From NCBI GenBank assembly GCA_951812955.1, contig OX638340.1:2944001-3008000 (forward strand): a stretch of 64,000 nucleotides of DNA, given 5' to 3'. Positions 24,901 to 59,879 of this stretch are shown piece by piece. The notes below the pieces were generated by a model. The model saw nothing but the letters and a program-made list of their open reading frames with translations. It did no database searches and had not been told where the DNA came from. Position 1 is the stretch's first letter. Every line of letters begins with the position of its first letter. This DNA comes from an uncultured Gemmatimonadota bacterium. Lineage in GTDB: Bacteria > JAAXHH01. Position numbers and translations under genes: made by a program.

Positions 24901-25535
24901 CCATCGTCGACGCCACGATCGTACACTACTACGCCTTTTACAGGACCTGGGGTTATTCCGTTCCGAAGCGTCTGCTTTGGACCCTGGGCTTTCTGCCGAA
25001 GGTCGTCTATTACATGGTGCTGGACAAAATCAGCAGAAGCCGTTTCAACCAGGTCTTCTACAGGCAATACCGGGGATTCGAGCGCGGCGAGTGCGTATCC
25101 CGCAGCGAACGCCTCTTCAACGAAGTCATGCGGCCGCGCATGTTCACCGGCGCCGTCGAACGCATTCGGGAGCATCAGCAAAGAGGCGAGCGCGTGGTCC
25201 TGGTCACCGGATCCCTCGATTTTATCGTGGAACCCCTCGCGGAGTACACCAAGGCCGACGATCTCATCGCCCTGTCCATGAAGGAGGAGAACGGCCGGCT
25301 GACGGGAGAGCCGGAAGGGCCGCCGATCGGCGACGAGGAGAAGGCCCGTATCGTCCGGGATTACGCCGAACGGCGCGGCATCGACCTGGACCGAAGTTAC
25401 GCCTATGCCGACAGCAGATCGGACCGGCCCATGCTGGACCTGGTGGGACACGCCGTCGTGGTGAACCCGGGCGGGAAACTCAGAAAGGCTGCGGAAGCCG
25501 GCGGCTGGGAAGTCGTTAGCTGGACCCACGTATGA
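21915..25535 (+). CDS. Tri-domain fusion: fatty acyl-CoA reductase (NAD_binding_4/male-sterility type) + ANL-superfamily acyl-adenylating domain + HAD-IB phosphatase-like domain
   Basis: N-terminus: LITGATGFLAKAV Rossmann fold and VSTAYV (Y-x-x-x-K) of FARs. Middle: GYGLTEAAPV and LHTGDIGYIDRDGYLYIADR adenylation motifs, but the P-loop is degenerate (FTRGMAAESHG versus TSGTTGxPKG). C-terminus: FFDVDGTIVD DxDGT motif and VLVTGS of HAD-IB. Confidence 0.75.
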   Translation: MSEIVTYLGGKTLLITGATGFLAKAVVEKILRCAPEVGRVYLVVRPRRKKDGTTLSAAERVEDEILQSAAFARLREMHGDRFAPFMAEKVHAVEGDLTLDHLGLEPELYRLLSEEVNVVMTCAASVTFDEEIDAALQLNALGARRMMEFARTCNRAILVHVSTAYVNGQLKGRIPEVPPRPDWSMAQEMGISDAPFDLEKEIRGILARAEEIHVASRSAVQQKRFRRSALQQNARPTQRWLDAQMETFRKRWLKEQLIEEGMRRGQQWGWHDSYTLTKAMGEQLIVKHRGELPTVIIRPSIVESSLVEPEPGWIEGLKVADPLIDAVSKGRLPDFPGDKDMIVDIIPVDMVVNSMLAAMEHTVREGGISVYHVSTGDRNPIRFQQAFELSYEYFLQHPRLNRNNEPIPIRRWTYPTLAQFRRRYNLRYVYPLNTALWVFNRFSRITFLNNWKRRITVLKSAISRMLYYASIYSPYTSLECTFETGRTVGLHERLGPDDRLLFNGDVSRIQWKTYFQDIHIPGLKRHVLKTDEPRPTVTEEEEVAERSGFTQAEDDPLPHLDTLTDILAKSADMYGDKTAMQMEREGVWVRYSFKDVHDLAGHMGWQWRSGGLHPGDRVLLFSENKPEWGIACFAGLVAGAVIVPVDRRSSAQEVWRIARFTGSKAVLCSESGFEMLKASEAPDLEVAFWNIDNYGLPFDASRPSASPVALNEEPPAWAPVQPDAPAAIMFTRGMAAESHGVVLSHRNFVSNLLSLAEILRAYRTDHFLSLLPMSQALEFTGGFLMPFYAGATITYTASVRPRSLVALMVESEINCLIAAPRIFGLMHRPLQRAARESDTDVVSRMRLLVSGGGTLASDLYHAYRDFGLTIHEGYGLTEAAPVVAVNPMDRSKPSSVGIALPEVDVRIANPDEDGKGEIVVRGSNVMLGYFENPSATEHRIRDGWLHTGDIGYIDRDGYLYIADRMERSRGSKDVPDGRPGNGKSRSATAFFDVDGTIVDATIVHYYAFYRTWGYSVPKRLLWTLGFLPKVVYYMVLDKISRSRFNQVFYRQYRGFERGECVSRSERLFNEVMRPRMFTGAVERIREHQQRGERVVLVTGSLDFIVEPLAEYTKADDLIALSMKEENGRLTGEPEGPPIGDEEKARIVRDYAERRGIDLDRSYAYADSRSDRPMLDLVGHAVVVNPGGKLRKAAEAGGWEVVSWTHV

Positions 25536-47098: not shown

Positions 47099-50000
47099 TC
47101 AGTTGAAAACGAACTCGGTCCACAGCCCGCCGCCTCGCCGAATCCGTTTCTGCCGGGTGATTACATTCAGCGTATTCGTAAACTCGAGCGTGACGCCGCC
47201 GCGGATGTACCTGCTGAACCGATAGTCCGTCGTGACCGAGAACCGGTTCTGATTCTGTCCGTTGCTGGGTTGGAAATCGCCGGCTATCCGCGATATAAGC
47301 GTCTCGTTGGTATTCCGGGTGTATTGCAGCCGGGCGTTAATGTCCCCGCTCGTCCGCTTCCCGAAGATCCGGATACCGGACCTGAGCCGGTAGTCCACCG
47401 CGACAGTGAGTGACCTGTTCTGCTGTTTCTGGTCGGTCGCGTTCCGTCCGAACTCGGTCAATCCGTCTAATGTTGTAAAGTTGCCTCGAATCACCACGCC
47501 CGCGTTCAGATCGAAGACGAAGCCGATCAGAGGAGACAGGGAAGTCGTGGTCGTCCGGGTGATACCGGCTTCACCAGGGTCCGTATCTCCCGCAGACCCC
47601 TGCGCGACCGCGGGGGCCACCTGCCCCAGGTCGGTGTTCTTCCCCTTGCGTCTCGAGTACCCGCTGGACAGTTCGATGCGGCGGAAGCTCCGGCCGAAGT
47701 CGCCCATGCTCCTGAGATTGGGACTCCACCGCAGGTTTACTTCAGGCCATGTGGTGTTATTCTGCTTCCGGTTCAGATTTGAGGACCGGTTATGGGTCGA
47801 CACCCACGTGGGCCGGATGGACAGGGTCGCGCCGCGTAACCGGATTCCCGTTCCCAGGTTGAAGGAAGACCGGTTCGCTTCCGACTCCTGGTTACGCTGG
47901 ATGCCGGTAACTCCGCCACCGGACCCCAGGGTATCGAACAGTACCGAGAAACTATCCGACAGCCCCATGCGTTCCCGCAAGGTCGGGCGGGATACCGCGT
48001 TGAAGAAGTTCTGGTTGCGGCTGATCGTGTAGTTCAGTGTGACCGGCGTGAAGTTACTCAAGACTGCGGCAAGCCGGTCCGACACGTTTCGTCGGAACCA
48101 TCCTGCGTCTTCTGGACTCGATCGTCGAGAAGATTCCCCGAGGACGTTCGATACCATTCTAGCCAAATTGACGTTCGTTCGCACGCCCTGCTGGTTGCTG
48201 AACGTGATGGTCCGCGCGCTTGGAGAAGCTCCGACAAGTTGCAACTGTGGATTCCGGTTCTCCGCGTAAGACGTGGTAAAGTTGTAGGACGGCCTGAACC
48301 AGGTCGTGATACCGGGACGATAGTCGACACCCAGGTTCTGGCGGTAGCTGGTTTCTGGACCGAATTCCAGCTTGGTAAAAGATACGGTGGAATCGGATTT
48401 CATGTCGTTGGAAACCGCGAGGTTGTAATTCATCCTCAAGGATCCGAAAGGTTCCATGATTGCCCGGATATTTCGGTTTAGATACCTGATGAAACGTTCG
48501 CCGCGGTCCGTACTTGCCGCCTCCGTTTCACCGGTGTTTCCGGCCACGACGGACTGCCTCGCCCTGTTGAGGTAGATCCGCCTGTCGCGATTTACTTCCG
48601 AGAACAACTCCAGTCGTACGGGCAGCGGGTTGAAAGTCAGTCCTGAAATAGACTCCGGCAATGGCATCCATCTTAGAATCGGCCACTGGATCTTAGAGCG
48701 CGGGGTCAGGTTGTAATGCAGTCGGGCCCGGTAGGAGCCGGACGTATCGATCCTGGAGACCGAGTGACGGAAATAACTGGTCGACGTGAAATCGAACCGG
48801 AATCGCTCCAGGGTCCAGGCGACGAAGGGATTCCTTGAACCGATACGCTTGGAGAAAGAAGCCGAAAACGAGCGGTCGTTGTTCTCCGTGCGCTGCGCTT
48901 CACGCTGTTCCTGGTTCAACAGGACGATATCGGACCCTACCTGCAACCGCGGCAGCCTCAGGTCGTTCTTCCAGCGGAGACGGAGTGGAATGGACAGTCC
49001 CCAGTCTTCCGGCAGCATGTTTCCCAGATTCAACAGGGAGGAAAAGTTTATCAAAGTGGATCTGCTCCCTGATTCTTCACCGCCAATCCTGCGGAAGTGA
49101 CTGCCCACGCTTCTGACGGTTCCGAACACTGATAAAACGTCGGCGAGATCGGCGTCGAACTTCAGTCGGCCGGCAAGTCCCCGGTCGCGCCTGACATCGC
49201 CCGCCCTCAGTTCGTCCAACCAGAGCTCACCTCCCACCAGAACCTGGTCGTAAGGATTGTAAATCCCCACTGTGATATGGCGAACACGGGCCAGGGCGGG
49301 TGAACCCAGAACCCTGTACTGCCTGTTTCCCTCCAGTTCGACTATGGCCAGCGTAAGCCCCTCATTTCGAGGACCATCCTTGAATCGCACGGGACGTGAA
49401 ATCCCGTCGCTCAGCGTAACCGCATAGGTCGTATCCGTTGTCGTCACCGTCCTCCGCGCTGTTTCCGTTTCGCTCTTGAGGACCGTCAGATCGTCGAAAA
49501 CGACCCTGAGATGGTTCGCTTCGTCCCATCCGGGCAAGACACGCGTCCGATATTCGTAATAGTCGAATTCTCCGCTTCCGAATCGAATAAAAAACTCGGG
49601 CGATCGGCCTGGTTCGAAGTTGTCCGAGCCGTGAATGTAAAGCCGCAGCGTGTTGTAGAGCGTATAGTCCTGATCGGAAAACAGCGTACGATAAGCCTGT
49701 GCGCTGTGGTGCGGCTGCAGGTTGGTATAGGTGATGATCAGGGACTGTTCCTTGTTCTGGAGGCCGGTCACCCGGTCGTACTCGATGATCGCACCGGGAG
49801 GCGACGTATATTCACCCGGATTGTCGTATGTGTTCTTCACGGCGACATCGAAAGTCTCTCCGGCGGCGGACAACGCGGAAGCAGGAACCGGATTGCCGGT
49901 GGAATCGGTTATCGCCCCGGTAAAGTCTTCCTGCCATTGGTTGCCGACGATATTGATGGAGGCGATACGCGTTTTTACCGGCTCGTCCACCTCCGTGATC

Positions 50001-53000
50001 CAAAGCCTGACCATTTCGATCCGCTCGAATGTCGGCATGCCCACCGAACCGGCGTAAGCGCGGTTCGCCAGGCCGGCAGCGCCTTCGGCCGTTTCTACAT
50101 CCGCACCGTCCTGGCGGTCCATGCCGTCCAACGACGGGTCCACACCGGCCGTCGCACCGAGGATTTCGGTGTCCAGCGGTATGCGGTACATGCGCCAGCT
50201 GTCCGGATTGCCCCAGTTGGAGCGATCCAGGTCGCCGCCGGCTACGAGCACCGTGTCATCGTGGTCCGGACTCAGATTCACGGCGAATTCGAAATAGTCG
50301 TTTTGTAAGTCCAGAAAGCCGGAGTAATCGAGATCTTCGGTATCGGGCCGACGGTTCTGATCCGGATCGTTGGCATTCACTTCCGGTCCGTTGATTTTGC
50401 TGTAGTCGACCTGGTCGACCGGCACGGAGCCACCCTTCGTACCTTTGAAGTGGAAGTTGTCCCCGTGTGGATCGGGGTTGCTCACCGGATCGTAACCGGC
50501 CTCCTCTTCGTCCCTCAGACCGTCCATCCCGATGTCTTCTTCCGGTTCCAGGAGGTTGTTGCCGAATCCGCCACTCCGGTCGTCTTCCGTATCCAGACTG
50601 TCGTTACCGTTGACATCCTCGCTGATTGCCCCGAGGTCGATATGCAGTTCGCCGCGATTCCCGTTCACCCATATCTCGATGAACCGGCTGCGCGTCTGGT
50701 CCACGTTGGCCCCGGAGAGCGGATGCATCAACCCGGCCCACCTGTTCAGCACGTCGCCCTGGCCGTTTTCCCGGCCGGGCGCGCTGAAGGTCGAGTCCGC
50801 AGACAAGCCGCCCCAGCGAAGGTCGGGTTCCGTGGGATCGTATTCCATGATCAGCACGTGCTGCAACTGGTCGCGGCCCGTGACCTCGCGGGTGGGGTAA
50901 ATCTGGCGGACATCGACCTGTTCGAGGGGATTGTACCAGATCATCCGGCCCCGCTGTTGGTGTTCGTATCGATCGGGTGGGCTGGCCGGCCGCCAGCCGC
51001 TCCGGCGCACGCCCAGGTCTGTTTCCTCCTTGCTTCCTTCGAAATCGTCGATAAACCCGTCGCCCAGGATATTGGGGTTGGGAACGCTCTGAGCCAGTTC
51101 GGCCTCGATGATCAACGAGGACGATTCGTCCGCCAGGTCCGCGGGGGAGATGAAATCCACGAAGGAAGTCAGAAAGTCAGGTTCGAACGCCAGCCGCGTA
51201 TCGATCCCCCACATCATGTACCGTCCGGTTTCACGGCCGATCCGGGACTTCTGCTCCAGGGACTTGTCGGACCGGTATAGAAATGTGCCTTTAATCCAGG
51301 ACTGTTCGCTGAACTGGTATTCACCCTGAAATCCCATCAGGGTGTTCGACACAGGCTTGAAGAACGGGGCAAACTGGAACTGGACGGTCACGTCCGCATC
51401 CGGGGTCAGAGCCTCCTCGTTCGTGAAACGGATCTGCCCGACTTCGTAGAGAATGATGTAATCGGTTCCCCGCTGCAGTTGCTGGCCGTTCAATCGCACG
51501 ATTTCACTCCCCTCGATGATATTGGTCCGCCCGAGGGAGTACTGGGACAACTGGTTACGGTATTCGACTTCAAGGAAGTACTTGTTCAGCCTGCTGTGCT
51601 GGCTGAAGATCTGTTCGCTCGAAAGATTATAGAACCCGGGCGTTTCATCGGGAAGGCCTTCGCCCTGCGTATTCGGATAGGCCAGTTGGCCGGCGGATGT
51701 TACGGTCAGGGCGGGCGCGAAGGGATACTGGTCCGGGAAAATCAGTTCCCCGCGTTCGAAATTGAACAACGCATAGTCGATGTCGACGATCCGGTCGGGC
51801 TCGGAACCGGGGTCCACCCCCCTCCGGTCGAGCCCCAGCAACTGGATGAAGGGCGTCCCGTTCTCGTCGACCTCACTGTGCTCGCCCTCGGACTGCAACT
51901 GGTAGATTCTCAATTCGAAATTGTTCGGATCGATGTCCGTCTGGCCGAGGTAATACACATTCCGCCACTCGTACTGCCAGGTGTCCCACTGGGCGGGATC
52001 GTCCGGGGCGGCGGGAGGGCGCTCCTGCTGCCGCTTGAGCAGGCGCAGCAGCGGGACGTCGCCTTCCAGTCGGCCGTACTTTTTGACTTCTCCGTTCTGG
52101 TTCACGGTCTCGTAGTATACTCCGAGCATGTCGTCTTCTTGCAAGGGCGTGTTCAACGCGATGTAGCCGAATTGCTGGTTTACGTAGAATTCGTCGGATT
52201 CCAGGTACCTGAACTTCCCTTCCACGAATTCACCCGCCTCGGAACCCTGGATGAGCACATCCTCCGAGTCGTACACGGGGGGATCCGGATAGGCATTGGC
52301 ATTGACCAGCTTGGCCTGGTTGGTCAGGGTGAGCCGTCCCGACACGTAGACCTGGATGACACGCACCGAGTCATCGGGCGCGACGCGGGACCCGTTTACG
52401 TCCCTGCGCGAGAAATCGCGGCGGTACTGCTCATCAATGAAATAGTAGGTCCTGCGCCTGAAGTCGAGGTCCCGGATCACCCGCTGAGACCCTTTGGTCC
52501 CGGCCTGGAACGTGGCGGATTCTCCTTCTCCCTTCTCCTGGCTGGCGATCGCGGTCAGGTGGAAGCTGCCGAGTTGGCCCGTCATTTTGACTCCAAACAA
52601 TCCGGTGTGCTGCTGCGTATAGCCCGTGAACTCCGTGTTCTTCAGATCGAGAGAAACGTTTCCAGCCTCGAAACTCTTCAGGATGCCGTTCCCATCCCGG
52701 CCGTCGTCGTAAACGTCCTGGTACCGAATGGCAAGGTTGTTGTCGAGGTCGGTGAACGCTTCGCTGTTCTGCTTGATGTTCACCTCGACCTTCTGGCCTA
52801 TGTTCCCGGAAACGGTAAACTCCTGGTTCTGCTTCATGGAAATGTTCGGTGCGCGAGAGAACCGGTTTGTCGCCGTACTCGCGCTGCCTTCCGTCCATTC
52901 GCTGGCCATGTCCATCTCGATGCGCTGGTTTCCGAGAATACGAATAACGGGCGTGCCGCCGCCCAGAAAAGTAGGCAGGTTCACCGGCAGATCGAGGGTC

Positions 53001-53401
53001 AGAAGGCCTTCCTGGCTCAGTCGGGTTTCGGTGTCGAAGACGTAGGACAGCACGGACGTTCGCCACAGTTTTTTGAATTGAGCCGCACTGCGAAGTCGGT
53101 AATATTGGTCAAAAGAGAGGACCAGGGGCACGCGGCGGCCAAGCCCCCGTTCTGCGTCTATGAAAGCCAGTAGCAGGAGGTCGGGATAGACGACGGTCCG
53201 GCCGCCCAAAGGCAACGGCCGGTCGGAGAGGGTACGCAGTGCCGGTCTGTTTTGCCCGCGGGCGATTTCGTCGACCTCATCGAAAGCAACGACGTGCAGG
53301 CGTGCGCTTTCGAGCCGGATCGCCGGGCCTTCCGCCAGTGCGGAGAAGGTCCACAGGGATATCAGCACGTGGCTGAAGACAATCGGACAAATGCGTTTCA
53401 T
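47099..53401 (-). CDS. sprA: Giant outer-membrane protein, SprA-like (T9SS translocon / gliding-motility cell-surface protein SprA family)
   Basis: 2100 aa with a signal peptide. Long beta-rich sequence of SprA character, ending in an aromatic beta-barrel C-terminus (..WTEFVFN). Plus-strand ORFs in this span are shadows. Confidence 0.6.
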   Translation of the reverse strand: MKRICPIVFSHVLISLWTFSALAEGPAIRLESARLHVVAFDEVDEIARGQNRPALRTLSDRPLPLGGRTVVYPDLLLLAFIDAERGLGRRVPLVLSFDQYYRLRSAAQFKKLWRTSVLSYVFDTETRLSQEGLLTLDLPVNLPTFLGGGTPVIRILGNQRIEMDMASEWTEGSASTATNRFSRAPNISMKQNQEFTVSGNIGQKVEVNIKQNSEAFTDLDNNLAIRYQDVYDDGRDGNGILKSFEAGNVSLDLKNTEFTGYTQQHTGLFGVKMTGQLGSFHLTAIASQEKGEGESATFQAGTKGSQRVIRDLDFRRRTYYFIDEQYRRDFSRRDVNGSRVAPDDSVRVIQVYVSGRLTLTNQAKLVNANAYPDPPVYDSEDVLIQGSEAGEFVEGKFRYLESDEFYVNQQFGYIALNTPLQEDDMLGVYYETVNQNGEVKKYGRLEGDVPLLRLLKRQQERPPAAPDDPAQWDTWQYEWRNVYYLGQTDIDPNNFELRIYQLQSEGEHSEVDENGTPFIQLLGLDRRGVDPGSEPDRIVDIDYALFNFERGELIFPDQYPFAPALTVTSAGQLAYPNTQGEGLPDETPGFYNLSSEQIFSQHSRLNKYFLEVEYRNQLSQYSLGRTNIIEGSEIVRLNGQQLQRGTDYIILYEVGQIRFTNEEALTPDADVTVQFQFAPFFKPVSNTLMGFQGEYQFSEQSWIKGTFLYRSDKSLEQKSRIGRETGRYMMWGIDTRLAFEPDFLTSFVDFISPADLADESSSLIIEAELAQSVPNPNILGDGFIDDFEGSKEETDLGVRRSGWRPASPPDRYEHQQRGRMIWYNPLEQVDVRQIYPTREVTGRDQLQHVLIMEYDPTEPDLRWGGLSADSTFSAPGRENGQGDVLNRWAGLMHPLSGANVDQTRSRFIEIWVNGNRGELHIDLGAISEDVNGNDSLDTEDDRSGGFGNNLLEPEEDIGMDGLRDEEEAGYDPVSNPDPHGDNFHFKGTKGGSVPVDQVDYSKINGPEVNANDPDQNRRPDTEDLDYSGFLDLQNDYFEFAVNLSPDHDDTVLVAGGDLDRSNWGNPDSWRMYRIPLDTEILGATAGVDPSLDGMDRQDGADVETAEGAAGLANRAYAGSVGMPTFERIEMVRLWITEVDEPVKTRIASINIVGNQWQEDFTGAITDSTGNPVPASALSAAGETFDVAVKNTYDNPGEYTSPPGAIIEYDRVTGLQNKEQSLIITYTNLQPHHSAQAYRTLFSDQDYTLYNTLRLYIHGSDNFEPGRSPEFFIRFGSGEFDYYEYRTRVLPGWDEANHLRVVFDDLTVLKSETETARRTVTTTDTTYAVTLSDGISRPVRFKDGPRNEGLTLAIVELEGNRQYRVLGSPALARVRHITVGIYNPYDQVLVGGELWLDELRAGDVRRDRGLAGRLKFDADLADVLSVFGTVRSVGSHFRRIGGEESGSRSTLINFSSLLNLGNMLPEDWGLSIPLRLRWKNDLRLPRLQVGSDIVLLNQEQREAQRTENNDRSFSASFSKRIGSRNPFVAWTLERFRFDFTSTSYFRHSVSRIDTSGSYRARLHYNLTPRSKIQWPILRWMPLPESISGLTFNPLPVRLELFSEVNRDRRIYLNRARQSVVAGNTGETEAASTDRGERFIRYLNRNIRAIMEPFGSLRMNYNLAVSNDMKSDSTVSFTKLEFGPETSYRQNLGVDYRPGITTWFRPSYNFTTSYAENRNPQLQLVGASPSARTITFSNQQGVRTNVNLARMVSNVLGESSRRSSPEDAGWFRRNVSDRLAAVLSNFTPVTLNYTISRNQNFFNAVSRPTLRERMGLSDSFSVLFDTLGSGGGVTGIQRNQESEANRSSFNLGTGIRLRGATLSIRPTWVSTHNRSSNLNRKQNNTTWPEVNLRWSPNLRSMGDFGRSFRRIELSSGYSRRKGKNTDLGQVAPAVAQGSAGDTDPGEAGITRTTTTSLSPLIGFVFDLNAGVVIRGNFTTLDGLTEFGRNATDQKQQNRSLTVAVDYRLRSGIRIFGKRTSGDINARLQYTRNTNETLISRIAGDFQPSNGQNQNRFSVTTDYRFSRYIRGGVTLEFTNTLNVITRQKRIRRGGGLWTEFVFN

Positions 53402-53596: not shown

Positions 53597-53713
53597 ATGG
53601 AACAGCAAACCGCCGAATTGACCACGGGTGGATGGGTCTTTCTCGTGATCGCATGGACCGTGATCACAGGGTTGACCGCCGCTTGTTTTCTCCGGGTAAG
53701 AAAGCTGAAATAG
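53597..53713 (+). CDS. Possible small membrane protein (38 aa)
   Basis: A GGAG lies 9 nt upstream of the ATG. One TM helix (WVFLVIAWTVITGLTAACFL). Confidence 0.3.
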   Translation: MEQQTAELTTGGWVFLVIAWTVITGLTAACFLRVRKLK

Positions 53714-53903
53714 GATTCTGCCCCCGCCAGGTTGTCCTGGGGTCTCCCGTTTCGTCTTCCAGTCCGCCTCCCTCTCCGCCTTAAATCGCTGCCGATCCTC
53801 CGGCGTCGATTACCAGCCGTCAGCCCCGAACCACGTGCTTCGAACAACGCGTCATCCCGTCCCGAACGCGGCATGCCGTCCCATTCTAAATGCGCGCCCT
53901 GCT

Positions 53904-53932
53904 TGACATTTGGGCGTTTTTGCCGTATCCTG
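53904..53932 (+). promoter_or_regulatory. Sigma70-like promoter (TTGACA-17-TATCCT) upstream of moaD
   Basis: Consensus -35 with 17-nt spacer ~45 nt upstream of the ATG at 53976. AAAGGA RBS. Confidence 0.45.
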
Positions 53933-53975: not shown

Positions 53976-54233
53976 ATGCGGATCATCGTCAAATGTTTCG
54001 CCGGGTGCAGAGACGCGGTAGGCTCGACATCGGTCTCCGTGGAGTTCCCGGACGGCACCACCGTGGGCGAGGCCTTTGCGGAGCTCATTGATTCATATCC
54101 CGCACTGGCGAGTTATGACCGGAGCGTGATGCTGGCCGTGAACCGCGATTACGCCGACCGGCAGGTCGTGCTCGCGGATGGCGACGAACTGGCGTGCATT
54201 CCGCCTGTGAGCGGCGGCGCTACACGGCGTTGA
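53976..54233 (+). CDS. moaD: MoaD/ThiS-family sulfur carrier protein with 4-residue extension after the Gly-Gly (..PPVSGG-ATRR)
   Basis: Beta-grasp MoaD-like sequence. The codons after GG were read directly: gct aca cgg cgt tga. Confidence 0.7.
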   Translation: MRIIVKCFAGCRDAVGSTSVSVEFPDGTTVGEAFAELIDSYPALASYDRSVMLAVNRDYADRQVVLADGDELACIPPVSGGATRR

Positions 54234-54317
54234 CGCGGATCAGCAGAGGCTGATTCAGTCACCGGCGTTTACGCGGTTCAGCGGCGGCAGTCTTCGATAA
54301 AGGACGAAATCAGGCCC

Positions 54318-54731
54318 GTGTACAAGATCATTGACGAATACATCAAGCCGGATGCCCTCTTCGAGTGGTCCCTCAAGCCCCATCACGGCGCAGTAGTCAC
54401 CTTCGCCGGTACCGTGCGGGACAATACGGATGGCCGGCGGACGCTGCGGCTGGAATACGAGGCCTATGCCGAGATGGCCGAAGCCAAGATGCGGGAAGTG
54501 GGCGCGGAAATCCGCGAAAGATGGGGTATTGAAGACGTCGCCATGATTCATCGGGTCGGCACACTCGAAATCGGGGAGATCAGCATCCTGATCTCCGTGG
54601 CGTCCCCTCACCGCAAGAACGCATTCGAGGCCTGTTCCTACGCGATCGACCGCGTCAAGCAGATCGTGCCCGTCTGGAAGAAGGAAATCTGGGCAGACGG
54701 GGAGCGGGAATGGGTGGAACGTAATACCTGA
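54318..54731 (+). CDS. moaE: Molybdopterin synthase catalytic subunit MoaE
   Basis: VVTFAGTVRD ... HRVGTLEIGEISILISVASPHRKNAFEACSYAIDRVKQIVPVWKKE are MoaE blocks. GTG start. Confidence 0.85.
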   Translation: MYKIIDEYIKPDALFEWSLKPHHGAVVTFAGTVRDNTDGRRTLRLEYEAYAEMAEAKMREVGAEIRERWGIEDVAMIHRVGTLEIGEISILISVASPHRKNAFEACSYAIDRVKQIVPVWKKEIWADGEREWVERNT

Positions 54732-54746
54732 AATCCGGTCCCTGTC

Positions 54747-55898
54747 ATGATAAACCTAGACCACGGCGCGGCGCCGCCGGTTGACTCCCGTGTCATCGAA
54801 GAGATGGCGCCCTGCCTCCGCGAATACACCGGCAATCCTTCAAGCCTTCACCAGGCGGGTGCGCTTGCGCGCAACGTACTGGAACTGGCACGCGGCCGGG
54901 TCTCGGCACTGATCGGTGCCGATCCCGGCGAGATCGTATTCACCGCAAACGGAACGGAAGCGGACAACCTGGCCGTCAAGGGCCTGGCCCAGGCGAGAGC
55001 GAATCACGGGCGGCACATCGTCATTTCCAGTATCGAGCATCATGCCGTGCTGTATGCCGCGAAGGCGATGGAACGACAGGGATTCACGGTCACCCAGGTT
55101 CCGGCGGACGGGGACGGCATCGTGCCGCCCGACGGGATTGCGCGGGCCATGCGGGACGACACCATCCTCGTCTCCGTTACGCTCGCTAACGACGAAACAG
55201 GTACGATACAGCCCGTGCGCGAAATCGCCGAGATCGCCCACGGCAACGGTGCGGTCATCCATTCCGATGCCGTGGCCGCGATGGGGCGCCTGCCTGTAGA
55301 TGTTCACGATTTAGAGGTCGATGCCTTGTCCATTTCCGCCCGACCCCTGAACGGCCCGCCCGGCGCCGGCGCCCTCTATGTGAAGGAGGGTACCCGGCTT
55401 CGTCCCCAGGTGGAAGGGGGCGTGCAGGAAGACGGCCGCCGCGGCGGACATGAGAACATCCCCGCAATCGTGGGTTTCGGCAGGGCGGCGGAACTGGCGG
55501 CGGTGGAGTTGCCGGCCCGGATCGACCGATTGAAGCGGCTGGATGCATCGATGTTTCTTGGCCTGAAGGACCGCCTGCCGGATGTCTCCATCAATGGGCA
55601 CGAGACCCTGCGTCTGCCCGGGCACCTGAACCTGTGGATACCGGAGGTCGACGGGGAATCCCTGGTCCTGATGCTCGACGCCCGGGGGATTGCCGCTTCC
55701 GTTGGATCCTCCTGCACCGCCCAGGTGTCCAAGCCGTCCCACGTGCTTCTGGCCCTGGGACGGACGGCGGCCGAAGCCCGCTGCTCGCTGCTGCTCACCG
55801 CCGGTCCGGACACGGCCGAAGGCGAGGTCGGCGAGGCACTTGACGCCCTGACCGAGGTCGTGGGAGCGTTGCGGGCCATCGCGGGTGTGAGCGCATGA
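54747..55898 (+). CDS. Cysteine desulfurase (NifS/IscS) homolog lacking the PLP Schiff-base lysine (SISARP in place of SFSGHK)
   Basis: Collinear with E. coli IscS across the full length (IVFTANGTEADNLAVKG, AMRDDTILVSV, HSDA, GSSCTAQ...PSHVL). At the PLP site the DNA reads tcc att tcc gcc cga ccc = S-I-S-A-R-P. Confidence 0.7.
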   Translation: MINLDHGAAPPVDSRVIEEMAPCLREYTGNPSSLHQAGALARNVLELARGRVSALIGADPGEIVFTANGTEADNLAVKGLAQARANHGRHIVISSIEHHAVLYAAKAMERQGFTVTQVPADGDGIVPPDGIARAMRDDTILVSVTLANDETGTIQPVREIAEIAHGNGAVIHSDAVAAMGRLPVDVHDLEVDALSISARPLNGPPGAGALYVKEGTRLRPQVEGGVQEDGRRGGHENIPAIVGFGRAAELAAVELPARIDRLKRLDASMFLGLKDRLPDVSINGHETLRLPGHLNLWIPEVDGESLVLMLDARGIAASVGSSCTAQVSKPSHVLLALGRTAAEARCSLLLTAGPDTAEGEVGEALDALTEVVGALRAIAGVSA

Positions 55899-56128
55899 TG
55901 AGGCCGGCAATGACCCTGGATACATTCGGCCTGCTCTGTCCCGTGCCGATCATGAAAACCGCGTCGGCCATCCGGGAGATCTCCGTGGGCGAAGTCCTGG
56001 AAGTGCTGGCAGACGATCCCCAGATCCTGGAGGACATGCCGGCCTGGTGCGCGAGTAATGGACACGCGCTGCTCGACACCATAGAGGAAAACGAGGAATT
56101 CAAACTATACGTGCGAAAGGTAAAGTGA
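55895..56128 (+). CDS. TusA-like sulfurtransferase (SirA/YedF/YeeD family)
   Basis: 77 aa with a conserved LCPVPIM (C-P-x-P) motif. A 4-nt overlap with the upstream gene. Confidence 0.8.
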   Translation: MMRPAMTLDTFGLLCPVPIMKTASAIREISVGEVLEVLADDPQILEDMPAWCASNGHALLDTIEENEEFKLYVRKVK

Positions 56129-56232
56129 TTGCTCTGGCGTATCGCCGGATGTAGATTGCGCATCGAGATTCAGTTCGCGCGAAAGAATTTAGTAGGAACG
56201 AAACGCCGATATGCCACCGGTAGGAGAAAAAG

Positions 56233-57318
56233 ATGGCCCATGAAGTGACCATGCGGGACGTGGTGGACCGACTGAAGCAGATCATGTACCCGGGATTCGA
56301 CCGCGACATCGTCTCCTTCGGCCTGGTTAAGAACGTACAGGCCTCCGGCGGCCACGTGGCCTTCAGCCTGGCCTTTTCCACGCAGGACGAAGCTTTGCGG
56401 CGTCAGATCACCATGACGGCGAAAGAAGCGGTGGAGCGCATTCCCGGTGTGCACGACGTGCAGATCACCGGTCCGCCGCCGGGACAATCGGCCACGGCAC
56501 AGGGCCCCGCGGCGGGGCAATCGGGACAGCCCGGACAGCCCGGGCAGCCCGGCAAGATCGAACTGCCCGGCGTAAAGACCATCGTGGCAGTGGCCAGCGG
56601 CAAGGGCGGCGTGGGCAAATCCACGGTCTCGGTGAACCTGTCGGTGGCCCTGGCCGACGCCGGCGCGAGCGTGGGCTTGCTCGATGCAGATATTTACGGC
56701 CCCAGCATACCGACGATGATGGGCGTCAAGGACCAGCCCGGGGTGGTCGGTCAGAAAATCCTGCCCATGATCGCCCACGACATAAAGATGATGTCCTTCG
56801 GCTTCCTGATCCCGGAGGACCAGTCGGTCACCTGGCGCGGACCCATGGTCCACCAGGCCGTGCAGCAACTGCTGCGCGACGTCCTGTGGGGAGAACTGGA
56901 CTGCCTCGTCATCGACATGCCGCCGGGCACGGGAGACGCGCACCTTACGCTTACCCAGTCCGTGCCACTGACCGGCGGTCTGGTAGTAACGACGCCGCAG
57001 GACGTGGCCCTCATCGACGCGCGGCGCGGCGTGGCCATGTTCCAGCAGGTCAACGTACCCATACTCGGCATCATCGAAAACATGAGCTATTTCAAATGTC
57101 CCCACTGCGGCGACCGTACGGATATCTTCACGACGGGCGGAGGGAGAAAGGCCAGCGAAGCGCTGGGCGTGCCCTTCGTCGGCGAATTGCCCATCGATCC
57201 GGCGGTCTGCCTGGCGGGCGACCAGGGTACCCCCATCGTCCGGAGGGAACCGGACTCGCAGCAGACGGATGCCTTCCGCCAGGTGGCGGACACGTTGCGG
57301 CAATCGATCGGGGTATAA
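56233..57318 (+). CDS. apbC: Mrp/NBP35 (ApbC) Fe-S cluster carrier ATPase with N-terminal MIP18/DUF59 domain and internal (QPG)n insert
   Basis: Deviant Walker A (ASGKGGVGKST), a C-x-x-C motif (FKCPHCG) and an N-terminal DUF59. Confidence 0.85.
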   Translation: MAHEVTMRDVVDRLKQIMYPGFDRDIVSFGLVKNVQASGGHVAFSLAFSTQDEALRRQITMTAKEAVERIPGVHDVQITGPPPGQSATAQGPAAGQSGQPGQPGQPGKIELPGVKTIVAVASGKGGVGKSTVSVNLSVALADAGASVGLLDADIYGPSIPTMMGVKDQPGVVGQKILPMIAHDIKMMSFGFLIPEDQSVTWRGPMVHQAVQQLLRDVLWGELDCLVIDMPPGTGDAHLTLTQSVPLTGGLVVTTPQDVALIDARRGVAMFQQVNVPILGIIENMSYFKCPHCGDRTDIFTTGGGRKASEALGVPFVGELPIDPAVCLAGDQGTPIVRREPDSQQTDAFRQVADTLRQSIGV

Positions 57319-57332
57319 AGGGGAAAGCGACC

Positions 57333-58373
57333 ATGTCCAAATCCGTGAAAGCAGTCGGACTGCTGTCCGGCGGCCTGGACAGTACGATCGCGGCCGCCAT
57401 GCTGATGCGCCAGGGCATCGAAGTCCAGGGACTCACGTTCTACACCGGTTTCTGCGTGGTGGAACACAATCGAAGGTCCAAGACGCGGAAGCGCAAGAAA
57501 CCGGTGCGCAACGAGGCCCTGCAGGCCGGCGCCAAACTGGACTTGCCCGTGGAGATGATCGACATATCGGGACCGGACTACCTCAAGGTACTCACTGATC
57601 CCAAATACGGATACGGCTCGGCCGTGAACCCGTGTATCGACTGCCGCATTTTCATGTTCCGGCGTGCCCGTCAGTACATGGACGAGATCGGCGCCCAGTT
57701 CATGTTTACCGGCGAGGTCCTCGGACAGCGGCCCATGTCACAGCGCCGCCAGCCCATGAATGTCATCGACCGGGACGCGGAGCTGGACGGCCTGCTGCTG
57801 CGGCCGCTTTCCGCCAAGAAGCTGCCGCCCACGGTGCCGGAAGAGAAGGGGTGGGTCGACCGGGAGCAACTGGGCGACATCCAGGGCCGTTCCAGGCAGC
57901 AACAGATGGAGCTGGCCGAGGAGTACGGCATCGAGGACTATCCATCCCCCGCGGGTGGATGCTGCTTTCTGACCGACAAGAACTTCGGCCGGCGCATCCT
58001 CGACTTCTTCGAACACGAGGGCAAAGAGAACCTGACCATGGACGACGTGATGCTGCTCAAGATCGGCCGCCACTTCCGCGTCAAGCCCGACGTGAAGGTG
58101 GTGATGGGCAGGGAAGAAGGGGAGAACAAGTTCCTCGAACGCTACACGCCCGGCCGGTGGAGACTGGAGACGAAGGACGTCACGGGTCCGACCACCCTCG
58201 TCGAGGGCCATCCTACCGACGACGACCTCCGGCGGATCGCCGGCATGACCGTACGGTACGCGGGGTCGAAGGCCGATCCCGGCGCCACAGTGGCCTGCCG
58301 CTACGAAGATTCCGAGCGCACCCTCGAGCCGTCCCCGGTGGAAGAGTCTGTTGTGGAGGAATGGCGGATATAG
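57333..58373 (+). CDS. ThiI-like PP-loop ATP pyrophosphatase lacking THUMP domain, with ~100-aa uncharacterised C-terminal extension
   Basis: LLSGGLDST PP-loop; FTGEVLGQRPMSQ and LLRPL blocks align to the E. coli ThiI adenylation domain. Confidence 0.6.
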   Translation: MSKSVKAVGLLSGGLDSTIAAAMLMRQGIEVQGLTFYTGFCVVEHNRRSKTRKRKKPVRNEALQAGAKLDLPVEMIDISGPDYLKVLTDPKYGYGSAVNPCIDCRIFMFRRARQYMDEIGAQFMFTGEVLGQRPMSQRRQPMNVIDRDAELDGLLLRPLSAKKLPPTVPEEKGWVDREQLGDIQGRSRQQQMELAEEYGIEDYPSPAGGCCFLTDKNFGRRILDFFEHEGKENLTMDDVMLLKIGRHFRVKPDVKVVMGREEGENKFLERYTPGRWRLETKDVTGPTTLVEGHPTDDDLRRIAGMTVRYAGSKADPGATVACRYEDSERTLEPSPVEESVVEEWRI

Positions 58374-58581: not shown

Positions 58582-58610
58582 TTGACAAGTGATTATTGTC
58601 ACTTTACATT
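58582..58610 (+). promoter_or_regulatory. Promoter (TTGACA-17-TACATT) with embedded inverted repeat TGACAA..TTGTCA, candidate HigA operator
   Basis: Lies immediately upstream of the higB start (58615), in a low-GC patch. Confidence 0.4.
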
Positions 58611-58614
58611 CTGA

Positions 58615-58893
58615 ATGGTACGCAGCTTCCGACATCGTGGACTCAGACGCCTCTACAAGCGCGGCGATGCCAGCCTCATTCGTACCGACCTGCGCGAAAG
58701 AGTCGAAGTGATGCTGGCACAACTCGAAGTGGCAGGTACCGTGAACGCTATGCGCCTGCCTCGATACCGGTTACACGCTCTCAAAGGAGATCTTAAAGGC
58801 TACTGGTCGGTCACCGTGAAGGCCAACTGGCGCATCACCTTCCGCTTCGAGCACGGGGATGTCTACGACGTAGATTTGACTGATTACCACTGA
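58615..58893 (+). CDS. higB: HigB-like toxin (RelE/ParE superfamily mRNA interferase)
   Basis: 92 aa; RLYKRGD...LHALKGDLKGYWSV motif of HigB/'plasmid maintenance system killer'. Confidence 0.8.
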   Translation: MVRSFRHRGLRRLYKRGDASLIRTDLRERVEVMLAQLEVAGTVNAMRLPRYRLHALKGDLKGYWSVTVKANWRITFRFEHGDVYDVDLTDYH

Positions 58894-58910
58894 AGAAAGT
58901 AGGACTGAAA

Positions 58911-59204
58911 ATGCCCATGAAGAACCCGCCACATCCCGGTAAGGTGGTACGCGTGTCGTGCCTGGAACCGCTCAACCTCAGCGTGACCGATGGCGCGAAG
59001 GTGTTGGGCGTCAGCCGTCAGGCGCTATCGAATCTGGTGAATTGCCATTCGCGGATTTCCGGCGACATGGCGGTCCGGCTGGCAAAGGCCTTCGGCTCGA
59101 CCACGGAGACCTGGATACGTCTTCAGGCGGCTTACGACATCGCCCAGGCACAGGACCGAGAGGATCAGATCGAGGTTGAGCGTTACGTTCCACATGCGGT
59201 CTGA
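58911..59204 (+). CDS. higA: HigA antitoxin (XRE-family HTH)
   Basis: HTH block VTDGAKVLGVSRQALSNLVN. Lies immediately downstream of higB (toxin-first Hig order). Confidence 0.8.
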   Translation: MPMKNPPHPGKVVRVSCLEPLNLSVTDGAKVLGVSRQALSNLVNCHSRISGDMAVRLAKAFGSTTETWIRLQAAYDIAQAQDREDQIEVERYVPHAV

Positions 59205-59210
59205 TCAACT

Positions 59211-59879
59211 ATGACCGATCTCCCCGTTATAGAACGCACCTCCAACAGTTTGCCCGAGGTTTACGCGTCCATCATCTGGCTCCATGGTCTGGGGGCGGAC
59301 GGCGGCGATTTTGCGCCGATTGTTTCGCAACTGGGGCTGCCGGCGTCCTACGCGGTCCGTTTCGTGTTTCCGTCCGCGCCATCCATTGCAGTGACGATCA
59401 ACCAGGGGATGGTCATGCCCGCATGGTACGATATCCTGGAACTGGGCGGCGCCCGGTGTCACGACGAAACCGGGTTACGCGCTTCCGCGGGCAAGGTGCA
59501 GGCATTGATGCGACGGGAGATCGATCGGGGCGTACCGAGTGAACGAATCCTGCTGGCGGGCTTTTCCCAGGGCGGCGCGGTCTGTCTCGAAGCCGGGTTG
59601 TCGTTCCAACGCCGACTCGGCGGCATCATGGCCCTGTCTACCTATTTTCCGACGGCCGACAGCGTCATCGTGCATCCGGCTCAGAACAGGCTTCCCGTAC
59701 TGGTGTGCCATGGTTCGATGGACCCGATGCTGGACGTATCCCTGGGGCGCAACGCCGCAGAAGCCCTCAGTCGATTGGGCCTGGTTCCGGAATACAAGGT
59801 ATATCCCATGGCACACGAGGTGTCTCCACAGGAAATCATCCGGATCGGCCAGTGGATCCGTGCCATACTGGGGAACTGA
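59211..59879 (+). CDS. Alpha/beta-hydrolase carboxylesterase/phospholipase (esterase YpfH-like)
   Basis: IWLHGLGADGGD ... GFSQGG nucleophile elbow ... a C-terminal His. Confidence 0.8.
   Translation: MTDLPVIERTSNSLPEVYASIIWLHGLGADGGDFAPIVSQLGLPASYAVRFVFPSAPSIAVTINQGMVMPAWYDILELGGARCHDETGLRASAGKVQALMRREIDRGVPSERILLAGFSQGGAVCLEAGLSFQRRLGGIMALSTYFPTADSVIVHPAQNRLPVLVCHGSMDPMLDVSLGRNAAEALSRLGLVPEYKVYPMAHEVSPQEIIRIGQWIRAILGN

What the first reader, a model, noticed from the sequence alone, without database searches (positions are those of the whole stretch)
53976..58373. Compact sulfur-trafficking cluster: extended MoaD, MoaE, K-less NifS, TusA-like, ApbC/Mrp, THUMP-less ThiI-like
Six co-directional genes, two of them with 4-nt overlaps, all belong to sulfur-carrier or persulfide-relay chemistry. 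MoaD has 4 extra residues after GlyGly, so it would need a JAMM-type protease, and none is encoded here. The ThiI homolog lacks the tRNA-binding THUMP domain and has a novel ~100-aa C-terminal tail, so it may adenylate or thiolate something other than tRNA U8, for example the MoaD-like carrier. The combination looks like a non-canonical thiocarboxylate-generating system. Possible products are molybdopterin, a thio-cofactor, or selenium trafficking, given the selenoprotein found elsewhere in this window.
Basis: inference. Interest (0 to 1): 0.55.

Follow-up and report, generated by a model that had tools for sequence, protein, structure and literature searches.

The report
Conserved sulfur-relay operon, marine Gemmatimonadota
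Six genes form a conserved operon joining molybdopterin synthase to a predicted but untested tRNA-thiolation module, with two unusual parts: a cysteine-desulfurase look-alike lacking its catalytic lysine, and a sulfur carrier that always needs trimming.

Summary
Window 53976-58373 carries six co-directional genes: moaD, moaE, a NifS-like gene, tusA, apbC/mrp and a ThiI-like PP-loop gene. One sigma-70-like promoter lies upstream. The same cluster, in the same order, occurs in 13 related loci of a marine Gemmatimonadota-like clade, several with different flanks.

Three details are real and stable in the clade:
- MoaD never ends in Gly-Gly. It carries a non-conserved 4-15 aa tail (longer in L006) or is fused to MoaE.
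- The NifS-like protein lacks the PLP lysine (Lys to Pro/Ser/Thr) but keeps the catalytic Cys, and is under purifying selection.
- The ThiI-like protein has no THUMP or rhodanese domain.

The interpretation needs correcting. The "novel tail" is Pfam NFACT-R_2, an RNA-binding domain. The protein belongs to the ThiI+DUF814 family that Burroughs and Aravind (2014) predicted to make 4-thiouridine in tRNA with TusA. It also has the CxxC+C motif of [4Fe-4S]-dependent U8 sulfurases, which fits the ApbC neighbour. Tailed or fused MoaD cleaved by JAMM proteases is already known.

Most likely this is a lineage-specific operon joining molybdopterin synthase to a TusA-fed tRNA thiolation module. I found no support for a new thiocarboxylate-forming system or for selenium trafficking. 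The E1 enzyme, the tail protease and the sulfur source remain unidentified.

The parts
53903..53931 (+). Sigma-70-like promoter TTGACA-17-TATCCT, about 45 nt upstream of moaD. It is the only promoter-like site before or inside the cluster.
   Evidence: A TTGACA-N17-TAxxxT site is present upstream of moaD in 6 of 7 cluster loci. This is a consensus match, not proof of function.
53976..54233 (+). moaD-like sulfur carrier (85 aa). Gly80-Gly81 are at 54213-54218, the 4-aa tail ATRR at 54219-54230, and the TGA stop at 54231-54233.
   Evidence: PF02597 E 9.6e-15. TIGR01687 MoaD family 50.5 bits (cut-off 49.5). TIGR01682 60.6 bits (below its 66.15 cut-off). Sequence.
54199..54288 (+). moaD-moaE junction with degenerate direct repeats of the moaD 3' end. 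It is an indel hotspot that generates the variable tails. moaD and moaE lie in one reading frame here, separated by a single TGA.
   Evidence: Repeats. The window has about 66 nt, and L006 about 50 nt, inserted relative to L001. In-frame arrangement. Fused in L002. Different frames in L006 and L007.
54318..54731 (+). moaE, the molybdopterin synthase catalytic subunit (137 aa, GTG start as listed).
   Evidence: PF02391 E 1.9e-41. E 1.2e-38 to S. aureus MoaE 2qie, with the ...IVPVWKKEIW segment conserved.
54747..55898 (+). NifS/IscS-like protein without the PLP lysine (383 aa). Pro200 (55344-55346) replaces the Lys. The catalytic-loop Cys323 (55713-55715) is retained.
   Evidence: (TIGR03402 402 bits against a 531 cut-off). 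dN/dS about 0.22.
55895..56128 (+). tusA-family sulfurtransferase (77 aa) with the Cys-Pro-x-Pro motif (GLLCPVP). Its start overlaps the nifS-like stop by 4 nt.
   Evidence: PF01206 E 1.3e-23. Sequence.
56233..57318 (+). apbC/mrp-type Fe-S cluster carrier ATPase (361 aa). It has an N-terminal FeS_assembly_P domain, the P-loop GKGGVGKS and a CPHC motif.
   Evidence: PF10609 E 4e-103 and PF01883 E 7e-11. NF008669 ApbC 319 bits (cut-off 348). Sequence.
57333..58373 (+). ThiI-like PP-loop ATPase fused to a C-terminal NFACT-R (DUF814) RNA-binding domain (346 aa). PP-loop SGGLDS is at residues 12-17. CxxC is C101/C104 (57633-57644). C210/C211 are at 57960-57965. NFACT-R spans about residues 246-346 (58068-58370).

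Best explanation
This is a lineage-specific operon of a marine Gemmatimonadota-like clade. It joins two known sulfur-consuming modules behind one promoter and lets them share a persulfide relay.

Module 1 is molybdopterin synthase (MoaD and MoaE). MoaD is made as a precursor with a short junk tail, or fused to MoaE. A protease encoded elsewhere, most likely a JAMM/MPN+ enzyme, must cut it after Gly-Gly. An E1 encoded elsewhere can then adenylate and thiocarboxylate it.

Module 2 is the ThiI+NFACT-R/TusA system. The PP-loop enzyme binds RNA through its NFACT-R domain and adenylates a uridine, predicted to be U8 of tRNA. It replaces the oxygen with sulfur at a [4Fe-4S] cluster held by the CxxC+C cysteines. 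TusA delivers the sulfur and ApbC/Mrp delivers the cluster.

The NifS-like protein cannot act as an ordinary cysteine desulfurase because its PLP lysine and three other PLP contacts are gone. It most likely serves as a non-catalytic Cys323 persulfide carrier or docking hub for TusA, translationally coupled to it. It may also supply a cysteine ligand during Fe-S handling, as A. fulgidus IscS2 does.

Shown: the gene identities, the motifs, the conservation and the architecture. Inferred: co-transcription, direction of sulfur flow, the RNA target, Fe-S dependence, and the role of the NifS-like protein.
For: - The cluster occurs in the same order in 13 further loci: L001, L002/L003, L006, L007, L086, L087 and L089-L094. 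NifS-like identity falls to 51-60% in some, and flanks differ: SprA, glycosyltransferases, DHDPS, ABC transporters.
- There is a single promoter-like site, conserved in 6 of 7 loci, and no internal promoter- or terminator-like site on the + strand between genes.
- All six genes are under purifying selection, with dN/dS of 0.06-0.23.
- TusA is adjacent to this gene in 28 of 78 loci from other phyla. An ordinary Lys-containing NifS is adjacent in L008 and L079.
- The CxxC+C motif binds an essential [4Fe-4S] cluster in rhodanese-less U8 sulfurases (PMC9825150). An independent lineage places Rrf2-ApbC-DUF59 directly upstream of the same gene (L005/L009).
- MoaD tails follow an invariant ACIPPVSGG: ATRR, ANPR, TTRH, HAQR, VDFV, KQFPFTVNYHSNV, HATSDFRFRISN, SGICEVGFVKWEVGL, or fusion to MoaE.
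- JAMM cleavage of MoaD-MoaE fusions, and the need for that cleavage, are published (PMC8832034; PMC4326299).
- MoaE is intact. A pterin-dependent AFOR is encoded in the same window.
- The Lys-less state is fixed in all roughly 76 clade members of the NifS-like protein. It shares the Lys and Gln183 losses with the PLP-free, inactive A. fulgidus IscS2 (PMC7585200).
Against: - No biochemical data exist for any ThiI+NFACT-R protein in the searched literature. The s4U8 target is still a prediction.
- No E1, JAMM protease, rhodanese or active cysteine desulfurase is encoded in the window or in the Pfam-annotated flanks of L001, L002, L086 and L087. The entry point of sulfur and the activation of MoaD are unaccounted for.
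- The moaDE linkage is seen only in this clade. It could be a neutral gene-order accident fixed early, rather than a functional coupling.
- A Lys-less fold-type-I enzyme need not be inactive, because PMP-dependent dehydratases with His in place of Lys exist (from my own knowledge). His104, Asp180 and Ser203 equivalents are retained.
Confidence: 0.6

Rival explanations
1. MoaD serves two clients, as TtuB, Urm1 and SAMP2 do. After processing and thiocarboxylation, the same carrier feeds sulfur to MoaE for molybdopterin and to the [4Fe-4S] cluster of the ThiI+NFACT-R enzyme for RNA thiolation. TusA and the NifS-like protein load the carrier.
For: MoaD and the PP-loop enzyme are co-operonic in all 13 clade loci. 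[4Fe-4S] PP-loop thiolases such as TtuA and NcsA are structural neighbours. From established knowledge, they take sulfur from ubiquitin-like thiocarboxylates. One E1 shared between cofactor and tRNA pathways is also known from Thermus and eukaryotes (my own knowledge).
Against: Outside this clade the ThiI+NFACT-R gene is never next to a MoaD/ThiS gene, but it is often next to TusA (PMC4075521). The protein has no TtuA-type zinc fingers in the Pfam result. No E1 is in the cluster.
Confidence: 0.13
2. The NifS-like protein and ApbC form an Fe-S assembly or transfer pair, analogous to the A. fulgidus (IscS-IscU)2 complex. The Lys-less protein contributes Cys323 as a cluster ligand. TusA brings sulfane sulfur, and ApbC is the scaffold or carrier. 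Clients would include the PP-loop enzyme and pterin/Fe-S enzymes such as AFOR. This partly overlaps with the best explanation.
For: The closest characterised relative is the PLP-free IscS2, with the same Lys and Gln183 losses (PMC7585200). Two other Lys-less NifS lineages sit in NifS-IscU-DsrE2-TusA clusters (L088; L095). ApbC is present in every clade cluster.
Against: No IscU is in the cluster. ApbC is separated from tusA by about 100 nt and is not translationally coupled to the NifS-like gene. The direct overlap is with tusA. ApbC-type proteins are usually carriers rather than primary scaffolds (my own knowledge).
Confidence: 0.15
3. The THUMP-less PP-loop enzyme replaces the missing MoeB/ThiF E1. 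It adenylates or thiolates the MoaD-like carrier or another non-RNA substrate, giving a non-canonical thiocarboxylate-forming system.
Against: The C-terminal domain is a conserved RNA-binding NFACT-R domain. MoaD's carboxylate is blocked by a tail until it is processed. No PP-loop E1 for a ubiquitin-like protein is known (my own knowledge).
Confidence: 0.04
4. The cluster traffics selenium rather than sulfur.
For: TusA-family proteins include YedF.
Against: TusA scores 43.5 bits against YedF (cut-off 79) and scores better against TusA. No SelD, SelA or YbbB domain was found in the window. A Lys-less NifS cannot be a selenocysteine lyase. Rfam gave no hit. The in-frame TGA after moaD is not conserved.
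Confidence: 0.02

Closest known systems
ThiI+DUF814 (NFACT-R) / TusA predicted 4-thiouridine pathway (Burroughs and Aravind 2014, PMC4075521)
   Same: The architecture is identical: a ThiI-like PP-loop domain plus a C-terminal NFACT-R domain, with no THUMP and no rhodanese. The CxxC, internal Cys and GRxRxxQ motifs are present. A TusA neighbour is present, and in some genomes an IscS-like neighbour.
   Different: Here the adjacent IscS/NifS-like protein has lost the PLP lysine, and moaD-moaE and apbC are added to the neighbourhood. The pathway itself has never been tested experimentally in the searched literature.
[4Fe-4S]-dependent U8-tRNA sulfurases TtuI of M. maripaludis and P. furiosus (PMC9825150)
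   Same: Both are rhodanese-less ThiI-type PP-loop domains with a CXXC+C motif. Both use inorganic or relayed sulfur at a cluster.
   Different: The archaeal enzymes carry N-terminal NFLD and THUMP domains. This protein has a C-terminal NFACT-R domain instead. Cluster binding is not shown here.
Archaeoglobus fulgidus IscS2 (PDB 4eb5, 4hvk), a PLP-free, desulfurase-inactive IscS
   Same: It is a top PDB sequence match (E 3e-94). The Lys is replaced and Gln183 is replaced by Ala. The catalytic-loop Cys is retained.
   Different: The A. fulgidus protein pairs with IscU in an anaerobic archaeon. This one is bacterial, has Pro/Ser/Thr rather than Asp at the Lys position, has no IscU neighbour, and is coupled to TusA.
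MoaD-MoaE fusions: MoaX of M. tuberculosis, and DR2607 of D. radiodurans cleaved by the JAMM protease DR0402 (PMC4326299, PMC8832034)
   Same: MoaD's Gly-Gly is not the translated C-terminus, so cleavage is needed for activity. One clade member (L002) is a true fusion.
   Different: Most clade members have a stop codon 4-15 codons after Gly-Gly, giving short non-conserved tails rather than a fusion. The junction is a repeat-driven indel hotspot. The protease has not been identified.
E. coli IscS-TusA relay feeding MnmA and, in part, MoaD/MoeB
   Same: A NifS/IscS-family protein and TusA are coupled, and the relay serves both tRNA thiolation and molybdopterin synthesis.
   Different: E. coli IscS is an active PLP enzyme. 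The E. coli genes are scattered rather than in one operon. E. coli ThiI uses its own rhodanese domain.

Membership tests
ThiI+DUF814 (PP-loop + NFACT-R) family | PP-loop ATP-binding motif SGGxDS | tested here: met
   SGGLDS at residues 12-17, invariant in 25 diverse members.
ThiI+DUF814 (PP-loop + NFACT-R) family | C-terminal NFACT-R/DUF814 domain, with no THUMP and no rhodanese | tested here: met
ThiI+DUF814 (PP-loop + NFACT-R) family | CxxC plus an internal Cys, and the GRxRxxQ loop motif | tested here: met
   C101, C104, C210, G185, R186, R188 and Q191 are invariant. The motifs are as described in PMC4075521.
ThiI+DUF814 (PP-loop + NFACT-R) family | Conserved TusA gene neighbour | tested here: met
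   tusA lies two genes upstream in the window. TusA is adjacent in 28 of 78 loci from other phyla.
ThiI+DUF814 (PP-loop + NFACT-R) family | Formation of 4-thiouridine in tRNA | not testable with these tools
   This is a prediction only. No experimental paper was found.
[4Fe-4S]-dependent tRNA sulfurases (TtuI/TtuA/NcsA type) | Three-Cys CXXC+C cluster site in the PP-loop domain | tested here: met
   The motif is invariant. C101 and C104 align with the NPCxxC of MnmA 9hln.
[4Fe-4S]-dependent tRNA sulfurases (TtuI/TtuA/NcsA type) | A bound [4Fe-4S] cluster that is required for activity | not testable with these tools
   This needs anaerobic purification and spectroscopy.
Class I cysteine desulfurase (NifS/IscS) | Fold-type I Aminotran_5 domain with a catalytic-loop cysteine | tested here: met
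   PF00266 E 4e-64. Cys323 aligns with E. coli Cys328.
Class I cysteine desulfurase (NifS/IscS) | Schiff-base lysine for PLP (E. coli Lys206) | tested here: not met
   Pro200 in the window, and Pro/Ser/Thr/Ala/Leu/Tyr in all roughly 76 clade members. His205 is also replaced by Arg and Gln183 by Ala. Therefore this protein is not filed as a cysteine desulfurase.
Class I cysteine desulfurase (NifS/IscS) | NCBIfam equivalog score | tested here: not met
   TIGR03402 NifS 402.5 bits against a 530.75 cut-off. IscS models are also far below their cut-offs.
PLP-free IscS (A. fulgidus IscS2 type) | Lys replaced, Gln183 replaced, Cys retained | tested here: met
   The alignment to 4eb5 shows SSNDIYGPKG and DATASVG against the window's SARPLNGPPG and DAVAAMG.
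PLP-free IscS (A. fulgidus IscS2 type) | Adjacent IscU partner | tested here: not met
   No NifU_N/IscU gene is present in the window cluster or in L001, L002, L086 or L087. IscU is present next to other Lys-less NifS lineages.
MoaD (MPT synthase small subunit) | ThiS/MoaD beta-grasp family with a C-terminal Gly-Gly as the last residues | tested here: not met
   The family match is met (PF02597; TIGR01687 above its cut-off). However, Gly-Gly is followed by ATRR, and every ortholog has a tail or a fusion. It is therefore a precursor form.
MoaE (MPT synthase large subunit) | MoaE domain with the conserved C-terminal Lys-containing segment | tested here: met
   PF02391 E 1.9e-41. RVKQIVPVWKKEIW aligns with RIKEIVPIWKKEIW of S. 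aureus MoaE 2qie.
TusA | TusA fold with the Cys-Pro-x-Pro active site | tested here: met
   PF01206 E 1.3e-23 and the motif GLLCPVP. It scores below the E. coli TusA equivalog cut-off (63.4 against 78), so it is a family member rather than a proven equivalog.
ApbC/Mrp/NUBPL Fe-S carrier | Deviant Walker A motif GKGGVGKS and a CxxC bridging-cluster motif | tested here: met
   Both motifs are visible in the translation (GKGGVGKST; CPHC). PF10609 E 4e-103. NF008669 scores 319 bits against a 348 cut-off.
JAMM-processed ubiquitin-like carrier systems (QbsE/QbsD, MoaD-MoaE/DR0402, SAMP/HvJAMM1) | A JAMM/MPN+ protease encoded with, or near, the carrier | tested here: not met
   No JAB/MPN domain was found in about 57 window ORFs or in the annotated flanks of four relatives. 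The rest of the genome could not be searched.

The most novel reading that the evidence does not exclude
Lys-less NifS-like proteins may be a recurrent class of PLP-independent sulfur hubs that work with TusA-type carriers, and this operon would be their first example outside the IscU context. Sulfane sulfur would enter through TusA or another donor rather than from cysteine. It would be parked on the conserved Cys of the pseudo-desulfurase and then distributed to an Fe-S-dependent RNA thiolase, to an Fe-S carrier and to a protease-activated MoaD. Three independent Lys-less lineages (RP/RS, SQ/NQ, DL) all sit beside tusA.
Probability: 0.2. Interest if true: 0.6.

Novelty: new variant of a known kind. 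Interest (0 to 1): 0.42.

Why it matters
The operon gives a compact, conserved test bed for three open points in sulfur trafficking.
- Whether the ThiI+NFACT-R/TusA pathway, predicted in 2014, really makes thiouridine, and whether it needs an Fe-S cluster.
- What a cysteine-desulfurase homolog does once it has lost PLP chemistry in an oxic-ocean bacterium, outside the archaeal IscS-IscU context.
- How bacteria tolerate, and process, sulfur carriers whose Gly-Gly end is always masked.

It also shows that molybdopterin synthesis and RNA thiolation can be wired into one transcription unit, echoing the shared MOCS3/Urm1 logic of eukaryotes. None of this overturns current models. It extends them.

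Tried and rejected
- Selenocysteine or read-through at the in-frame TGA between moaD and moaE. The single-TGA, same-frame arrangement is real in the window and in L001. However, moaD and moaE are in different frames in L006 and L007. The 8-bp hairpin after the stop lies in a window-specific insertion. Rfam found nothing. Rejected.
- A Moco or other riboswitch upstream. There was no Rfam hit in the whole window.
- An exact-sequence look-up of the window's PP-loop protein in the assembly collection found nothing. The nearest named record is a MAG labelled Candidatus Latescibacterota, at 94% identity (L006). Most other relatives are labelled Gemmatimonadota.
- A search for E1, JAMM, rhodanese and SelD in the window by Pfam found none.
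- A literature search for experimental work on ThiI+DUF814, and for a link between Lys-less NifS and TusA/DsrE2, returned only the 2014 prediction and no paper on that link.
- The 38-aa membrane ORF upstream (53597-53713) as a cluster component. It is conserved only where the SprA flank is also conserved. Rejected.

Full report
**What is there.** Window 53976-58373 holds six co-directional ORFs.
- Pfam and NCBIfam identify them as MoaD/ThiS (85 aa), MoaE (137 aa), a class-V aminotransferase of the NifS/IscS type (383 aa), TusA (77 aa), an ApbC/Mrp/NUBPL-type P-loop Fe-S carrier with an N-terminal FeS_assembly_P domain (361 aa), and a ThiI-like PP-loop ATPase (346 aa, ATG at 57333).
- The spacers are 84, 15, -4, 104 and 14 nt, so only the nifS-like/tusA pair overlaps (ATGA).
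- The only sigma-70-like site in or before the cluster is TTGACA-17-TATCCT at 53903-53931. The next one precedes the downstream higB.
- The cluster is bounded by a divergent 2100-aa SprA-like gene and by a higBA pair.
- Rfam found no riboswitch or other RNA family in the window, and ARAGORN found no tRNA.

**The three oddities are real.**
- MoaD ends PPVSGG-ATRR-stop.
- In the NifS-like protein, the E. coli IscS motif SFSGHKIYGPKG reads SISARPLNGPPG. The Schiff-base Lys is Pro, the preceding His is Arg, and Gln183 is Ala. His104, Asp180, Ser203 and the catalytic-loop Cys are kept.
- The PP-loop protein has neither a THUMP nor a rhodanese domain.

**The cluster is conserved.** Homologs place the window in a marine Gemmatimonadota-like clade. 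One MAG at 94% identity is labelled Candidatus Latescibacterota.
- The six genes occur in the same order in L001, L002/L003, L006, L007, L086 and L087, and in six metagenome contigs, L089-L094.
- The NifS-like identity falls to 51-60% in the most distant of these.
- Flanks differ: SprA and amidohydrolases in L001, glycosyltransferases and ABC transporters in L002 and L086, DHDPS in L087. The gene order is therefore selected and not inherited synteny.
- A TTGACA-N17-TAxxxT site precedes moaD in six of seven loci.
- Pairwise dN/dS is 0.06-0.12 for ApbC, the PP-loop enzyme, TusA and MoaE. It is about 0.18 for MoaD and about 0.22 for the NifS-like protein. All six are functional genes, and the NifS-like protein is the least constrained.

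**The ThiI-like protein is a known, predicted RNA thiolase.**
- Its C-terminal 100 residues match Pfam NFACT-R_2 (E 2.8e-21).
- A 25-sequence alignment gives an AlphaFold model with mean pLDDT 87.
- Burroughs and Aravind (2014, PMC4075521) described exactly this ThiI+DUF814 architecture: the CxxC and internal Cys, the GRxRxxQ motif, near mutual exclusion with THUMP-ThiI, and TusA as the one conserved neighbour, with IscS in some genomes. They predicted an alternative s4U pathway.
- All of these motifs are invariant here.
- In my survey of 78 loci from other phyla, TusA is adjacent in 28, and a normal Lys-containing NifS is adjacent in L008 and L079. MoaD and MoaE are adjacent in none.
- The CXXC+C motif was later shown to hold an essential [4Fe-4S] cluster in rhodanese-less archaeal U8 sulfurases (PMC9825150). 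That gives a rationale for the ApbC gene. A distant lineage independently places Rrf2-ApbC-DUF59 directly upstream of this gene (L005/L009).
- I found no experimental paper on the family.

**MoaD and MoaE.** MoaE is a good match to solved MoaE proteins, with the C-terminal Lys-containing segment intact. A pterin-dependent AFOR lies at 13759-15687 in the same window, so a real molybdopterin synthase is expected.
- After an invariant ACIPPVSGG, the orthologs carry ATRR, ANPR, TTRH, HAQR, VDFV, KQFPFTVNYHSNV, HATSDFRFRISN or SGICEVGFVKWEVGL. L006 has a long out-of-frame extension, and L002 has a direct fusion to MoaE. None ends in Gly-Gly.
- The junction contains degenerate direct repeats of the moaD 3' end. 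It differs between close relatives by 50-66-nt insertions. This explains why the tails are unrelated in sequence, and why moaD and moaE happen to share a frame across one TGA in the window and in L001 but not in L006 or L007.
- I therefore reject selenocysteine or programmed read-through at that TGA.
- Fused MoaD-MoaE proteins must be cleaved after Gly-Gly to be active (MoaX, PMC4326299). In Deinococcus a JAMM protease encoded elsewhere does this (PMC8832034).
- The simplest reading is that this clade has a constitutive processing protease. That would relax selection on where the stop codon falls.
- No JAMM, ThiF/MoeB or rhodanese domain is present in the window or in the annotated flanks of four relatives. 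I could not search the rest of any genome.

**The Lys-less NifS-like protein.**
- All roughly 76 clade members returned by the homolog search lack the Lys (Arg-Pro, Arg-Ser or Arg-Thr) and keep the Cys.
- A top PDB match, and the closest characterised relative, is A. fulgidus IscS2 (E 3e-94), which shares the Lys and Gln183 losses. That protein is PLP-free, has no desulfurase activity, and donates its Cys as a ligand to the IscU cluster (PMC7585200).
- Here there is no IscU. The gene is instead translationally coupled to tusA.
- Two other Lys-less lineages, found among the more distant hits, sit in NifS-IscU-DsrE2-TusA clusters (L088; L095). Association of PLP-free NifS-like proteins with TusA therefore seems recurrent. 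I found no paper on this.

**Most likely mechanism (inferred).** One transcript encodes a shared relay and two consumers.
- TusA, docked on the NifS-like pseudo-enzyme, carries persulfide sulfur.
- The PP-loop/NFACT-R enzyme receives its [4Fe-4S] cluster from ApbC, binds RNA, adenylates the target uridine and thiolates it.
- Processed MoaD is thiocarboxylated with the help of an E1 encoded elsewhere and works with MoaE.
- I put about 0.6 on this composite reading.

**Rivals.**
- Dual use of MoaD as a TtuB-like donor for the PP-loop enzyme (0.13).
- A NifS-like/ApbC Fe-S assembly pair (0.15, partly overlapping with the best explanation).
- Selenium trafficking (0.02).

**Verdict.** Every part has a known relative and the central enzyme family was predicted in 2014. 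The specific combination appears new: an obligately tailed MoaD, a bacterial PLP-free NifS-like protein coupled to TusA without IscU, and ApbC with an Fe-S-type ThiI+NFACT-R enzyme, all in one conserved operon. It is a new variant of known kinds, of moderate interest, and a good experimental handle on an untested tRNA-thiolation pathway.

Noticed in passing
window 54199-54288; L006 4669-4741: The moaD-moaE junction carries degenerate direct repeats of the moaD 3' end (GTGAGCGGCGGC...). It differs between close relatives by 50-66-nt insertions. In the window and L001, moaD and moaE are in one frame separated by a single TGA. In L002 they are fused.
   Followed up: yes
L088 474-3007; L095 9968-12579: Two other lineages of Lys-less NifS-like proteins (motifs GSQFYGPKG and SDLLYGPKG) lie in NifS-IscU-(Zn ribbon)-DsrE2-TusA clusters. 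PLP-free NifS homologs may therefore generally work with TusA/DsrE-type sulfur carriers. No paper on this link was found.
   Followed up: partly
window 13759-15687 (-): An aldehyde:ferredoxin oxidoreductase family protein (AFOR_N and AFOR_C) is encoded here. It is a tungsto- or molybdo-pterin and [4Fe-4S] enzyme, and so a possible client for both molybdopterin synthase and ApbC.
   Followed up: no
window 58615-59879: A higB/higA toxin-antitoxin pair, with its own promoter-like site at 58582-58610, and a carboxylesterase gene are inserted between the PP-loop gene and three Amidohydro_2 genes. In L001 those three genes follow the PP-loop gene directly.
   Followed up: partly
window 53597-53713 (+): A 38-aa ORF with one predicted transmembrane helix (MEQQTAELTTGGWVFLVIAWTVITGLTAACFLRVRKLK) is conserved at 79-89% identity in L001 and L006. 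It was called as a gene in L001 and has no Pfam match. It is present only where the SprA flank is also present.
   Followed up: partly
window 47099-53401 (-): A 2100-aa SprA-like protein (SprA_N domain; a type IX secretion/gliding component) is transcribed divergently from the cluster.
   Followed up: no
window 54237-54256: An 8-bp hairpin (GGAUCAGC-AGAG-GCUGAUUC) starts 3 nt after the moaD stop. It has no T-run, lies in the window-specific insertion, and is not conserved in L001.
   Followed up: partly
L005 5925-9044 and L009: In two hydrothermal 'BMS3' bins, the ThiI+NFACT-R gene is preceded by an Rrf2 regulator, ApbC/Mrp and a stand-alone DUF59 (FeS_assembly_P) gene. This is an independent link between this enzyme family and Fe-S carriers.
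   Followed up: partly
window 21915-25535 (+): A 1206-aa multidomain protein combines a fatty-acyl reductase domain (NAD_binding_4/Sterile), an AMP-binding domain and a HAD hydrolase domain. This is an unusual fusion and was not examined further.
   Followed up: no
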